From positions 1 through 42,356 of the IMG/VR virus record IMGVR_UViG_3300019487_000011: DNA of 42,356 bases; one strand, written 5' to 3'. The notes beneath the pieces were generated by a model. The model ran no database searches and was not told the DNA's origin. It saw only the letters and a program-made list of their open reading frames with translations. Position numbers and translations under genes: made by a program. This document shows, piece by piece, positions 14,524 through 38,692 of the stretch. Source of the stretch: a virus. The stretch's first letter is position 1; each line of letters begins with the position of its first letter.

Positions 14524-15065
14524 CCGGGACTGGGGACCGGACCAGGCCTAGGGCCTAAGCGGTACCCGGCCAGCTATAGTAGCCGCCCCCCGCACGTACA
14601 TGGGGGGCGGGCCCGGGCCGGGGACCGTGCCGGTGCCGCGTTTACACGCGGACCGTGCTGGGCCGGCGCGCTAGGCTGGGCACGGGCCGGGGCGCGGGCA
14701 TAATGCGCCCACGGCACGGGCATAATCCGACGCGAGGTAACATAACCGGGGGGCAGGGGTAACCCCAGCTACAAATAAACTTTAGCTCCCGGCTTCCCAC
14801 ACCAGAAGGAATCGTGGGATCGTCCCGATTCCTTGGGCGGCTACGCCGCGAGGGGGGTGTAGGAATCAGTCCCGGGGGGCCCCAGCAGGTAACAGGGACG
14901 GTGCAGGGGGGAGGGGCGGGCCGGTCAAGGGACGTTTCGCTATGCGAAAGAGTAGGTTACGGAGTAAATGAGAACGATTCGCATTTGAAGGGACGCGGAG
15001 GGGCGATTTATGTTAAATCGACCAAGCACTAGGTTCCCATTTTGGGACTTTATGCGCGGTACCCC

Positions 15066-15094
15066 TTGACAAATTCCCTTAATTTTGTTATAAT
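15066..15094 (+). promoter_or_regulatory. Consensus sigma70 promoter P1 (TTGACA-N17-TATAAT)
   Basis: Exact consensus hexamers with a 17-nt spacer, set in an AT-rich patch of a GC-rich region. Confidence 0.75.
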
Positions 15095-15126
15095 ATTACG
15101 GTACGTAAAAGGTAAAGGAGCGAACG

Positions 15127-15348
15127 GTGCAGGAAGTGAGCGACCACGGGCCTCGGGACTCCCTAGGGGTCGCCCGAGGCGAGACTCCGAAGGAGTCGAG
15201 CGGTCCGGTCCCGCTCGACTCCTTCGGAGTCTCGCGGAGGGAGCCGAAACGTCGTAAACCGGCCTTTAAGTGGGCCCTACGTAGGGTTAAGTACTACGGC
15301 GGTATGAAAGTACCCAGTTTCTTGCAGAAACCACTTGACAGAACCTAG
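15127..15348 (+). CDS. Questionable 73-aa basic ORF downstream of P1
   Basis: GTG lies 6 nt after AAGGAG. However, the ORF contains the 25-bp perfect hairpin and runs into P2, so it may be non-coding. Confidence 0.25.
   Translation: MQEVSDHGPRDSLGVARGETPKESSGPVPLDSFGVSRREPKRRKPAFKWALRRVKYYGGMKVPSFLQKPLDRT
15150..15235 (+). other. Structured element: 8-bp hairpin plus perfect 25-bp stem / 7-nt loop, containing three GACTCC-N3-GGAGTC-type palindromes
   Basis: 15179-15203 pairs perfectly with 15211-15235, and 15150-15157 pairs with 15173-15180. The palindromes lie at 15157-15171 (imperfect), 15183-15197 and 15217-15231. No U-tract follows. Confidence 0.9.
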
Positions 15349-15363
15349 GCCCTGTGGTATAAT
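15335..15363 (+). promoter_or_regulatory. Consensus sigma70 promoter P2 (TTGACA-N17-TATAAT)
   Basis: Exact consensus, about 40 nt upstream of ATG 15404. Confidence 0.75.
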
Positions 15364-15403: not shown

Positions 15404-16018
15404 ATGGCCTACGCTAAGTTTACGTTCTTTGAGGCGGCTACCCAGCACGGGTTCGTCATGGCTTGCATGTCGGACAAGGTGCAGAAGTCCCGGGAGTTCC
15501 ACCAGATCATCATTGACCCCACCCGGGGTCGGGTGTTCCAGTTGTTCAAGTCCCGGGACCCGGAGCGTCCGTTCTTCGAATACGTCATCCCCGAGCGGTT
15601 GATGACCGAATCGAACTACATGTGGCGAGCCAAGGTCAAAGGGGAGCTTGAAAAGCTATGGGGCAAGATGCTACGGGAGAGGGCGAAGGCCCGCTCGACG
15701 GGACCGGAGGGCCCCTGTGGACCGGACACTACGGTTCCCTCCGAATCTCAGCCCTTGAGCCCTTCTGCATCATCGACCGATGCGCTGCCGAAGTCGGAGT
15801 CCTTGAGTTCCGAGTCCGAGGGGACGGTACCCGCTCCGCAGGGCTCCGGCCCCGGGCCATCGACCCCGGAATTCTCGCCAACCGGGCCAGCTTCTTCACT
15901 GGCCTCCGAGCTTCCATCGCAGAAGTCGGGGTCAAGGTCCCGATCCTCGTCTGGGGCATCAAAGGCAAGCTCTGGCTCCGCTACGGCGCGAGCCGGGTCC
16001 ACGCCTGCGAATGGCTAG
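15404..16018 (+). CDS. Hypothetical protein; globular N-terminal ~100 aa, then a Ser/Pro-rich tail overlapping the ParB-like frame
   Basis: 204-aa ORF. The C-terminal half is low-complexity and overlaps ORF 15658..16194 by 361 nt in another frame. Confidence 0.5.
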   Translation: MAYAKFTFFEAATQHGFVMACMSDKVQKSREFHQIIIDPTRGRVFQLFKSRDPERPFFEYVIPERLMTESNYMWRAKVKGELEKLWGKMLRERAKARSTGPEGPCGPDTTVPSESQPLSPSASSTDALPKSESLSSESEGTVPAPQGSGPGPSTPEFSPTGPASSLASELPSQKSGSRSRSSSGASKASSGSATARAGSTPANG

Positions 16019-16194
16019 GGATTGACCGGATTCCGGCCATCCTTTGCCTGTATGACGCCCACGTACCGACCGGATTCCTTTGCCTCCGGGAGCTAAAGAC
16101 CCCCGGGGAAGTCCTAGAGGCGTTTAACGCCCGGGAAGTGGGACATTTCGTCGTAGATCACGAAAAGATCGACGCGCACCGCATGGAGCCTTAA
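15658..16194 (+). CDS. ParB/Srx-like nuclease-domain protein
   Basis: LRASIAEVGVKVPILVW..GK.WLRYGASRVHACEWLGIDRIPAI fits the ParB N-terminal domain pattern (PI.V ... G..R..A ... G...IPA). The true start is uncertain. Confidence 0.6.
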   Translation: MGQDATGEGEGPLDGTGGPLWTGHYGSLRISALEPFCIIDRCAAEVGVLEFRVRGDGTRSAGLRPRAIDPGILANRASFFTGLRASIAEVGVKVPILVWGIKGKLWLRYGASRVHACEWLGIDRIPAILCLYDAHVPTGFLCLRELKTPGEVLEAFNAREVGHFVVDHEKIDAHRMEP

Positions 16195-38517: not shown

Positions 38518-38542
38518 TCACGTACCGCGTTACTAAAGAAAA

Positions 38543-38570
38543 GGGCCCGAGGGTTTAAACCCTCGGGCCC
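38543..38570. terminator. Bidirectional intrinsic terminator between convergent operons
   Basis: GGGCCCGAGGG-TTTAAA-CCCTCGGGCCC forms an 11-bp perfect stem. An A-tract precedes it and a T-rich tract follows. Confidence 0.85.
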
Positions 38571-38692
38571 TTCGCTTTGTGGGCTACCGAAAAGTATTAC
38601 TTCTCGGACAGCTTCCGCAGGATGCGCTCGTCGCGCGCGCGGATTTCTTCCTTCGTCACCAGACCCGTCAGGTCCAGTATATCACACTTTCC

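What the first reader, a model, noticed from the sequence alone, without database searches (positions are those of the whole stretch)
15066..15363. Consensus promoter driving a perfect 25-bp hairpin with three GACTCC-N3-GGAGTC palindromes
P1 (15066-15094) and P2 (15335-15363) are exact TTGACA-N17-TATAAT promoters only 270 bp apart.

The P1 transcript contains an 8-bp hairpin (15150-15180). It also contains a perfect 25-bp stem with a 7-nt loop (15179-15235). No U-tract follows, so it is not an intrinsic terminator.

The same DNA carries three 15-bp palindromes of the type GACTCC-NNN-GGAGTC, centred at about 15164, 15190 and 15224. An ORF with a good RBS (15127-15348) runs through this structure, which is unusual for coding sequence.

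Possible roles are:
- an RNase III processing site, as in T7 mRNAs;
- a highly expressed structured ncRNA or dsRNA decoy;
- a triple operator or centromere-like site for the ParB-like protein encoded 400 bp downstream.
Basis: partly seen in the sequence, partly recalled or inferred. Interest (0 to 1): 0.62.

Follow-up and report, generated by a model that had tools for sequence, protein, structure and literature searches.

The report
Conserved structured leader RNA in phage
The perfect 25-bp hairpin is this phage's tidied-up copy of the third hairpin of a three-hairpin RNA element, absent from Rfam, that related uncultured phages all carry just behind a strong promoter at the head of their packaging genes; its job is unknown.

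Summary
P1 and P2 are exact TTGACA-N17-TATAAT promoters. A perfect 25-bp/7-nt hairpin lies at 15179-15235, no U-tract follows, and a 73-codon ORF with a good RBS runs through it.

The window is a complete 42-kb uncultured phage. Fourteen distinct relatives' contigs, reached through the neighbouring ParB-like gene, carry a homologous element 15-39 nt behind a near-consensus sigma-70 promoter. It has three parts:
- H0, with an invariant tandem G.A/A.G between covarying pairs.
- H1.
- H2, a long irregular hairpin, followed by GGAGGG.

Stems covary: 93.9% of cells pair against 84.3% in shuffles (0/500), and 8 of 20 pairs change on both sides. It matches no Rfam family.

Only this phage has a perfect H2. 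Relatives have internal loops (16-22 bp). Two of the "three palindromes" are one self-complementary segment seen in both arms.

Palindrome sequences are not conserved, which argues against a ParB operator. The reading frame through the hairpins is not conserved, and the ORF has no homologue among 5.8 billion proteins.

Best reading: a plus-strand structured RNA, either a leader or a short ncRNA. H2 is a plausible RNase III substrate, but the function is unproven.

The parts
14968..14984 (.). Upstream DNA palindrome ATGAGAAcgaTTCGCAT, a candidate protein operator. It is context, not part of the RNA element.
   Evidence: Sequence-conserved (3 or fewer mismatches to ATGAGAAnnnTTCTCAT) at -54 to -133 from the P1 -35 in 8 of 12 family members. 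It is conserved as sequence, whereas the hairpin stems only covary.
15066..15094 (+). Promoter P1: TTGACA-N17-TATAAT with TGn. Predicted transcription start near 15101.
   Evidence: Every relative has a near-consensus sigma-70 promoter 15-39 nt upstream of H0.
15120..15141 (+). Hairpin H0: GCGAAC [GGUGCAGGAA] GUGAGC. It has two Watson-Crick pairs, a tandem G.A/A.G, two more Watson-Crick pairs and a 10-nt loop.
   Evidence: The tandem G.A/A.G is kept in 12 of 13 sequences (one has G.U). The flanking pairs covary (G-C/C-G/A-U/U-A; A-U/G-C; C-G/U-A).
15151..15179 (+). Hairpin H1: outer stem CUCGGG/CCCGAG around the conserved ACUCCCUAGGGGUCG.
   Evidence: The outer stem covaries (CGUCGGG, GGGCCG, GCCGGCC, GCGGCG and others). 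The loop motif CUCCCUAnGGGUCG is conserved.
15179..15235 (+). Hairpin H2: perfect 25-bp stem, 7-nt loop, predicted -53.9 kcal/mol. It consists of a conserved outer stem GCGAGAC/GUCUCGC, a closed internal loop (UCC/GGA, unique to this phage), a middle stem GAAGGA/UCCUUC and an apical stem GUCGAGCGG/CCGCUCGAC. It contains palindromes 2 and 3.
   Evidence: The outer stem covaries in relatives (GGGAGAC/GUCUCCC, GUCAGAC/GUCUGAC, GCGAGAU/GUCUCGC with U.G). Relatives have internal loops.
15236..15245 (+). Conserved purine tract GGAGGGAGCC directly 3' of H2 (Shine-Dalgarno-like).
   Evidence: GAGGG follows H2 in nearly all members. It serves as the RBS for the first gene in L006 (TTG) and L009 (GTG). 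No ORF follows it in L181 or L032.
15127..15348 (+). 73-codon ORF running through H0 loop, H1 and H2. Only its C-terminal basic part (about 15247-15348, KRRKPAFKWALRR...) resembles micro-ORFs in relatives.
   Evidence: The frame through the hairpins is not conserved. There is no homologue among 5.8 billion proteins except itself.
15335..15363 (+). Promoter P2: TTGACA-N17-TATAAT with TGn, directly upstream of the conserved gene at 15404.
   Evidence: A second near-consensus promoter follows the element in every relative examined.

Best explanation
The hairpin is part of a conserved, plus-strand structured RNA of about 125-150 nt. It is transcribed by host sigma-70 RNA polymerase from P1, at the head of the rightward block (ParB-like gene, small-terminase-region genes, terminase, portal).

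The element has three consecutive hairpins. H0 carries an invariant tandem G.A/A.G. H1 has a conserved loop. H2 is a long hairpin. A GGAGGG tract follows.

The perfect 25-bp stem is this phage's own symmetrised version of H2. Its outer, middle and apical helices are each shared with one or more relatives. A 3-nt change (GGA to UCC) closes the internal loop that the L005/L006/L032 group keeps there. This may have arisen by quasi-palindrome correction (inferred).

Most likely mode of action (inferred, not shown): the element acts as RNA in cis, as a leader. H2 would be cut by the host double-strand-specific RNase III. That would separate a stable 5' H0-H1 RNA from a downstream message that starts just before the GGAGGG ribosome-binding tract, as at T7 R0.3.

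Sub-probabilities:
- It is a functional plus-strand RNA structure rather than a protein operator or a coding sequence: about 0.75.
- H2 is an RNase III processing or stability site: about 0.3-0.35.
For: Homologous elements, found with a covariance model, sit at the same place in 14 distinct relatives' contigs (22 loci, some of them the same sequence). Scores: close group 69-138 bits (L186, cut off at its 5' end, 45.2), L034 32.6, L040 22.5, L177 22, L038 and L179 about 13.

A control of 768 kb of unrelated DNA, pre-selected for the H1 loop motif, gives nothing better than E = 0.037.

Covariation:
- 93.9% of cells pair against 84.3% in shuffles (0/500).
- Covariation score 0.336 against 0.140 (0/500).
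- Partners slid by 1-3 columns pair in 42% of cells or fewer.
- 8 of 20 pairs change on both sides.
Hand-delimited helices agree.

Strand specificity:
- The invariant G.A/A.G tandem and the U.G pairs are stable only on the plus strand.
- Minus-strand model hits reach 33.6 bits at most, against 126.
- The element always lies 15-39 nt behind a near-consensus promoter on the same strand.

The long H2 is the minimum-energy fold in all six members tested: -21 to -36 kcal/mol in the five relatives and -53.9 here.

No Rfam family matches at E of 1 or below apart from chance-level hairpin hits.

Against coding: substitutions between members are compensatory in the stems and non-synonymous in the ORF frame.
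Against: There is no RNA evidence at all.

Only about 9 informative close sequences exist, and they are related. The shuffle statistics therefore overstate independence. Helices in the distant members (L177, L040, L038, L179) were partly delimited by eye.

A plain RNase III site does not explain the strongly conserved H0 tandem-GA or the H1 loop. Nor does it explain why a second full-strength promoter follows the element everywhere. In L181 that promoter comes after only 22 nt with no ORF between. In L034, H2 ends in a U5 terminator. Both fit a free-standing small RNA or a polymerase-directed element better.

The GC pattern by codon position of the 73-aa ORF is weakly coding-like. In the four members with the basic micro-peptide there is always a translational path from the leader into it.
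Confidence: 0.5

Rival explanations
1. Self-sufficient or factor-assisted antitermination RNA, working like HK022 put. The nascent H0-H1-H2 RNA would bind the transcribing host polymerase just after P1 and make it read through pauses and terminators of the roughly 23-kb rightward block.
For: - Multi-hairpin RNA with bulges and conserved loop nucleotides, 15-39 nt from the start of a strong host-type promoter. putL has the same position and general anatomy (PMC9378689).
- It is conserved regardless of which gene follows.
- Only three consensus-like plus-strand promoters (15066, 15335, 16201) precede 23 kb of rightward genes.
- Hairpins lie further downstream.
Against: - One copy per genome, whereas HK022 has put after both early promoters.
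- P2 and P3 transcripts would lack the element.
- About twice the length of put, with no sequence similarity shown.
Confidence: 0.13
2. Free-standing small non-coding RNA with its own promoter. It would act in trans, for example as a sponge or decoy for a host RNA-binding protein or a defence sensor. H2 would serve as the 3' stabilising or terminating hairpin.
For: - A second full consensus promoter follows the element in every member, so downstream genes do not need P1.
- In L181 nothing is encoded between the element and P2.
- In L034 H2 is followed by U5, giving a terminator and an RNA of about 165 nt. L032 has a hairpin plus a U-rich tail.
- Purine-rich GGA motifs sit in loops of several members.
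- The neighbouring cargo genes look like anti-defence or mobile genes: T5orf172 and a weak Acb2/Tad1-like hit.
Against: - The window and most members have no terminator after H2.
- The GGA motifs are not conserved. L009 and L181 have none in the H0 loop, and the window has lost the internal-loop copies.
- No partner has been identified.
Confidence: 0.15
3. Translational control element or translated leader. Ribosomes starting at GTG 15127 would read through H1 and H2 to make a 73-aa protein whose functional part is the C-terminal basic peptide. Alternatively, the structure tunes use of the GGAGGG ribosome-binding site by the first downstream gene.
For: - Good RBS and start codon.
- Basic micro-ORFs with shared K/R-rich ...W-A-x-x-R in the window, L005, L009 and L030, with synonymous differences between them.
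- In L009 the leader ORF stop overlaps the peptide start (GTGA).
- GGAGGG is the RBS of the first gene in L006 and L009.
- The GC pattern by codon position is weakly coding-like.
Against: - All three frames are open through the GC-rich element in most members, so an open frame means little.
- The frame used differs between the window, L030 and L009. L006 has no start codon.
- L032 and L181 have no peptide at all.
- There are no protein homologues.
- The ribosome-binding site is never strongly sequestered in predicted folds.
Confidence: 0.12
4. DNA-level site. The palindromes would be operators or centromere-like sites for the ParB-like protein, or a cruciform at a replication origin activated by P1/P2 transcription.
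For: - Perfect 57-bp inverted repeat beside a large ORF-poor GC-rich region with the strongest positive GC skew in the genome.
- Tandem promoters, as at the T7 primary origin (general knowledge).
- A ParB_N-like gene lies about 420 nt downstream.
Against: - Palindrome half-sites and spacer length change between relatives while complementarity is kept.
- G.A tandems and G.U pairs are asymmetric between strands.
- The protein has only a weak ParB_N match, and no Pfam DNA-binding domain was detected.
- A truly sequence-conserved palindrome exists elsewhere, at 14968-14984.
Confidence: 0.07

Closest known systems
T7 early region: tandem strong host promoters A1-A3 followed by RNase III site R0.3 ahead of the first gene (general knowledge, Dunn and Studier)
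   Same: - Consensus host promoters in tandem.
- A long hairpin just upstream of the first ribosome-binding site.
- Relatives' H2 has two helical segments split by an internal loop, like T7 sites.
- The variable first genes look like accessory or anti-defence cargo.
   Different: - One site per genome instead of about ten.
- Two additional conserved hairpins (H0, H1) that RNase III does not need.
- This phage's stem is perfect.
- Cleavage is untested and the host is unknown.
HK022 putL/putR polymerase-utilisation RNAs (PMC9378689)
   Same: Promoter-proximal nascent RNA made of stem-loops with bulges and conserved unpaired bases, made by host polymerase from a strong promoter.
   Different: - About 125-150 nt and three hairpins, against about 70 nt and two.
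- Single copy.
- No similarity shown and no antitermination data.
Lambda PR'-6S RNA-tR' leader of the late operon (general knowledge)
   Same: - A strong constitutive promoter at the head of the packaging and structural genes that makes a short structured leader.
- L034 even ends the element with a terminator.
   Different: - No Q-like gene or qut site identified.
- Most members lack the terminator.
- A second promoter follows the element.
Candidate structured RNA motifs found by comparative genomics in phage and metagenome sequences (Rfam-type cis-regulatory or ncRNA motifs)
   Same: Defined in the same way: conserved position, covarying stems and conserved loops.
   Different: No match to any of the 4227 Rfam 15 families at E of 1 or below, beyond chance hairpin hits.

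Membership tests
RNase III processing site (T7 type) | Double-stranded RNA helix of about two turns (roughly 20 bp or more), often interrupted by an internal loop | tested here: met
   Window: 25 perfect bp. Relatives: 16-22 bp with internal loops.
RNase III processing site (T7 type) | Staggered cleavage by RNase III (2-nt 3' overhang) and dependence on the host rnc gene | not testable with these tools
   No RNA data.
Intrinsic (Rho-independent) terminator | GC-rich hairpin immediately followed by a U-tract | tested here: not met
   GGAGGGAGCC follows the stem in the window, and the scan finds no terminator there. The feature is met only in relative L034.
ParB-parS partition or operator site | Palindromic site conserved in sequence among relatives that keep the protein | tested here: not met
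   Half-sites and spacer vary (GACTCC-N3, GACCTC-N4, GACTC-N3, CTTC-N3), and only complementarity is kept.
ParB-parS partition or operator site | ParB protein with an N-terminal domain plus a helix-turn-helix DNA-binding domain | tested here: inconclusive
   No Pfam hit for the window's protein. There is a weak ParB_N match in 12 of 30 homologues, and no Pfam DNA-binding (helix-turn-helix) domain matched. No structure search was done.
HK022 put antiterminator RNA | Stem-loop RNA just downstream of an early host-type promoter | tested here: met
   The element starts 15-39 nt after the -10 in all members. Compare PMC9378689.
HK022 put antiterminator RNA | About 70 nt, two stems, and a copy behind each early promoter | tested here: not met
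   Three hairpins, 125-150 nt. There is a single plus-strand model hit in the whole genome.
HK022 put antiterminator RNA | Terminator read-through in cis without protein factors | not testable with these tools
   Needs reporter or in-vitro transcription assays.
Protein-coding gene (73-aa ORF) | Reading frame and start conserved in relatives, with homologues in protein databases | tested here: not met
   The frame differs or is interrupted in L030 and L009. L006 has no start codon (L032 only a TTG at the predicted transcript start), and L181 has no equivalent ORF. The ORF matches only itself among 5.8 billion proteins.
Any Rfam 15 RNA family | Covariance-model score at or above the gathering threshold | tested here: not met
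   The best hits are 24-26 bits against thresholds of 52-100. They are hairpin-only matches to miRNA and sRNA models.

The most novel reading that the evidence does not exclude
H0-H1-H2 is a new class of promoter-proximal regulatory RNA that gates expression of the packaging and structural block in an uncultured phage clade that appears to rely on host sigma-70 polymerase. It would be either a put-like RNA that reprograms the polymerase, or a ligand- or protein-sensing two-state RNA. The conserved tandem-GA hairpin and H1 loop would form the recognition surface, and H2 would be the switch.
Probability: 0.15. Interest if true: 0.7.

Novelty: new member of a known kind. Interest (0 to 1): 0.42.

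Why it matters
If the element is confirmed, it defines a previously uncatalogued structured RNA family. The family is shared by a clade of uncultured 40-kb phages with no cultured relatives. It sits at a control point: the strong host-type promoters that head the packaging and structural genes, next to a variable cargo slot.

It gives a compact, testable handle on how such phages time or process their transcripts using only host enzymes. A 130-nt RNA can be cloned behind its own promoter in E. coli.

The perfect 25-bp version in this genome is a natural 'closed-loop' mutant of the family. That makes it useful for asking what the internal loop does.

It is not a new kind of biology unless the antitermination or switch reading proves right.

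Tried and rejected
- Near-identity DNA search of the phage collection found nothing. Protein searches for cultured relatives gave only distant terminase matches below 40% identity and no match for the ParB-like protein.
- Single-protein scans of IMG/VR with the three flanking proteins found no relatives. An alignment-based scan found only two loci.
- Exact-motif scans returned chance hits only. These covered the metagenome, viral contigs and genome contigs, and were checked by nhmmer and the covariance model.
- The genome search could not draw relatives for a virus record, and the MAG holding L040 is not held.

Considered and rejected:
- N4-type hairpin promoters. No giant virion RNA polymerase is present, and the largest ORF is 735 aa.
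- Hammerhead or other ribozymes, retron ncRNA and the packaging pRNA. There is no Rfam hit, no reverse-transcriptase domain among the few flanking proteins scanned, and a terminase is present.
- A CRISPR-repeat mimic. No repeat-like 3' handle was seen; this was judged by eye only.
- A CsrA sponge. The GGA motifs are not conserved across members.
- An SD-sequestering riboswitch. The ribosome-binding site stays unpaired in predicted folds.
- The alternative local 3' hairpin. It covaries, but it is 6-24 kcal/mol less stable than the long H2, so a two-state switch is not established.

Full report
**1. What is in the sequence**

The window is a complete 42,356-bp virus record with terminal repeats. 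It is about 60% G+C and has no close or cultured relatives in the phage collection.

- Two exact TTGACA-N17-TATAAT promoters with TGn, at 15066-15094 and 15335-15363. They are the only exact matches in the genome. At 2 or fewer mismatches there are 8 sites against 0.48 expected.
- A hairpin at 15151-15179.
- A perfect 25-bp stem with a 7-nt loop at 15179-15235. It is the only hairpin of 15 bp or more in the window.
- No U-tract after the stem.
- A GTG-initiated 73-codon ORF (15127-15348) with AAGGAG 6 nt upstream.

The palindromes at 15183 and 15217 are the same self-complementary 15-mer seen in both arms of the perfect stem. They therefore count as one feature, not two.

**2. Relatives**

DNA and single-protein scans failed. 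The large protein collection did hold 29 homologues of the ParB-like protein, at 43-82% identity. Their contigs were fetched.

In these contigs the ParB-like gene is followed by DUF5681, small ORFs, terminase and portal. The region of interest therefore sits at the head of the packaging and structural block.

Upstream of the ParB-like gene and of a conserved 'MAYAKFTFFE' ORF, the relatives carry the same arrangement:
- a near-consensus sigma-70 promoter;
- 15-39 nt later, a conserved element;
- then 0-3 variable small genes (a basic micro-peptide, T5orf172, a weak Acb2/Tad1-like protein, HNH-like or zinc-finger proteins);
- then a second near-consensus promoter.

**3. Anatomy of the element**

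Alignment and RNAalifold give three hairpins.

- **H0 (window 15120-15141)** is N-C-G-A-R-Y, a 10-nt loop, then R-Y-G-A-G-N'. The central G.A/A.G tandem is kept in 12 of 13 sequences (L011 has G.U), and the Watson-Crick pairs on both sides covary.
- **H1 (15151-15179)** has a covarying 6-7 bp outer stem around the conserved CUCCCUAnGGGUCG.
- **H2 (15179-15235)** has a covarying 7-bp outer stem. The variants are GCGAGAC/GUCUCGC, GGGAGAC/GUCUCCC, GUCAGAC/GUCUGAC and GCGAGAU/GUCUCGC (with U.G). Its interior is variable.
- A GGAGGG tract follows H2 directly.

A covariance model built from seven sequences recovers the element:
- the close group at 69-138 bits (L186, cut off at its 5' end, 45.2);
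- L034 at 32.6, L040 at 22.5 and L177 at 22 bits;
- L038 and L179 at about 13 bits, at the places I had picked by eye.

It finds nothing better than E = 0.037 in 768 kb of unrelated DNA that had been pre-selected to contain the H1 loop motif.

On an independent MAFFT alignment of nine sequences, the 20 named pairs behave as follows:
- 93.9% of cells are paired, against 84.3% in shuffles (0/500).
- The covariation score is 0.336 against 0.140 (0/500).
- Partners slid by 1-3 columns pair in 42% of cells or fewer.
- 8 of 20 pairs change on both sides.

The sequences are related and few, so this is good but not conclusive support.

**4. RNA or DNA, and which strand**

The G.A/A.G tandem and the U.G pairs would become C.U and C.A mismatches on the other strand. 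Minus-strand model hits are limited to the palindromic H2, at 33.6 bits or less against 126. The element is always downstream of, and co-oriented with, a strong promoter.

By contrast, a true sequence-conserved DNA palindrome, ATGAGAAnnnTTC(T/G)CAT, lies 54-133 bp upstream of the P1 -35 in 8 of 12 members (window 14968-14984). It shows what a protein operator looks like in this clade.

The hairpin 'palindromes' change sequence and spacer between relatives. The variants are GACUCC-UUC-GGAGUC, GACCUC-UCCC-GAGGUC, GACUC-CCU-GAGUC and CUUC-UCC-GAAG. I therefore read the element as plus-strand RNA and rate the ParB-operator idea as unlikely. The ParB-like protein itself has only a weak ParB_N signal.

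**5. The perfect stem is a local peculiarity**

Fold predictions show a long H2 as the minimum-energy structure in every member tested, but interrupted in the relatives:
- L005, L006 and L032: 7-8 bp, then a 3x3 loop (GGA/GGA), then 6 bp (GAAGGA/UCCUUC), then a small apex. Predicted about -22 kcal/mol.
- L030 and L181: 7 bp, then a large asymmetric loop containing AAGGGACCCUGCAA, then an apical GAGCGG/CCGCUC stem. Predicted -30 to -36 kcal/mol.
- L009: 7 + 3 + 6 bp. Predicted -21 kcal/mol.

The window combines the outer stem, the L005-type middle stem and the L030-type apical stem. It has UCC where the L005 group has GGA, which closes the loop and gives 25 perfect pairs (-53.9 kcal/mol).

The 3' strand is nearly identical to that of the relatives, while the 5' strand is its exact complement. 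That is what template-switch 'quasi-palindrome correction' would produce. This is an inference, not something shown.

**6. Coding?**

All three frames are open through the GC-rich element in most members, so an open frame is uninformative.
- The window's frame has a stop in L030.
- In L009 it ends before the basic peptide.
- L006 has no start codon; in L032 the only in-frame candidate is a TTG at the very start of the predicted transcript.
- L181 has no equivalent ORF at all.

The substitutions that distinguish the window from relatives in H1 are compensatory in the stem and non-synonymous in the ORF frame. The 73-aa product has no homologue among 5.8 billion clustered proteins except itself.

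There is some evidence the other way:
- The GC pattern by codon position is weakly coding-like.
- A K/R-rich micro-peptide with a shared W-A-x-x-R follows H2 in the window, L005, L009 and L030.
- That peptide is always reachable from a leader ORF. It is fused in frame in the window, L005 and L030, and joined by a GTGA stop-start overlap in L009.

I therefore keep a 10-15% chance that translation through the leader matters.

**7. Mechanism**

Shown: conservation, position, covariation and strand asymmetry.

Inferred: everything about function.

The reading I favour is a cis-acting leader whose long H2 is cut by host RNase III, as at T7 R0.3. That would leave a 5' H0-H1 RNA and a message beginning at the GGAGGG tract.

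Three things weaken this reading:
- The conserved H0 and H1 features.
- The second promoter that always follows the element.
- L181 (no ORF, only 22 nt to P2) and L034 (H2 plus U5 terminator).

These keep three rivals alive: a free-standing small RNA, a put-like polymerase-directed RNA (PMC9378689), and a translational or translated-leader element. No Rfam family matches.

**8. Verdict**

The finding is best described as a new, uncatalogued structured RNA family of an uncultured phage clade. The eye-catching perfect hairpin is a lineage-specific variant of its third helix. Interest is moderate.

Noticed in passing
window 14968-14984; also L034 586, L177 380 and 436, L009 94, L032 4137, L005 4461, L030 2473, L040 4229: A sequence-conserved 7-3-7 palindrome, ATGAGAAnnnTTC(T/G)CAT, lies 54-133 bp upstream of the P1 -35 in 8 of 12 family members. 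It is perfect in L034 and in one of the two L177 copies. Its half-site TGAGAAT resembles Fur-family boxes (TGATAAT), a comparison made from memory. It is a candidate operator for a regulator of P1.
   Followed up: partly
L006 3043-3736; L038 801-1361; L005 4840-5095; L009 468-915; L177 723-911: The slot between the RNA element and the conserved MAYAKF/ParB-like genes holds different small cargo genes in each relative: T5orf172, a weak Acb2/Tad1-hairpin-like protein, CxxC/HNH-like proteins and a basic micro-peptide. It looks like an accessory or anti-defence hot spot.
   Followed up: no
window 15404-16194 and relatives (for example L005 5097-5862, L009 916-1687): The N-terminal 'MAYAK(F/Y)(T/S)FFE...' ORF is conserved at protein level in all relatives. 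Gene callers mostly did not call it there, and they start the overlapping ParB-like ORF at variable N-termini. I did not examine it further.
   Followed up: no
L034 745-822: In this relative the 5' arm of H2 (CGAGCGAG) has two alternative 3' partners (CUCGCUCG, present twice). The distal one is followed by U5, so H2 can close as an intrinsic terminator. This is an attenuator-like arrangement not seen in the window.
   Followed up: partly
L017 1874-2096 and L015, L016, L021, L025-L027 (unrelated metagenome contigs): The search motif hit an unrelated 20-nt tandem repeat (GAGTGAGCGAACGGCTCACT), which shows as six pattern matches 40 nt apart in L017. It lies at the edge of AT-rich contigs from marine and sediment samples. 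It is not related to this element.
   Followed up: no
window 38541-38572: A 14-bp perfect hairpin (AAGGGCCCGAGGGT-TTAA-ACCCTCGGGCCCTT) lies between the convergent rightward and leftward gene blocks. It is probably a bidirectional terminator.
   Followed up: no
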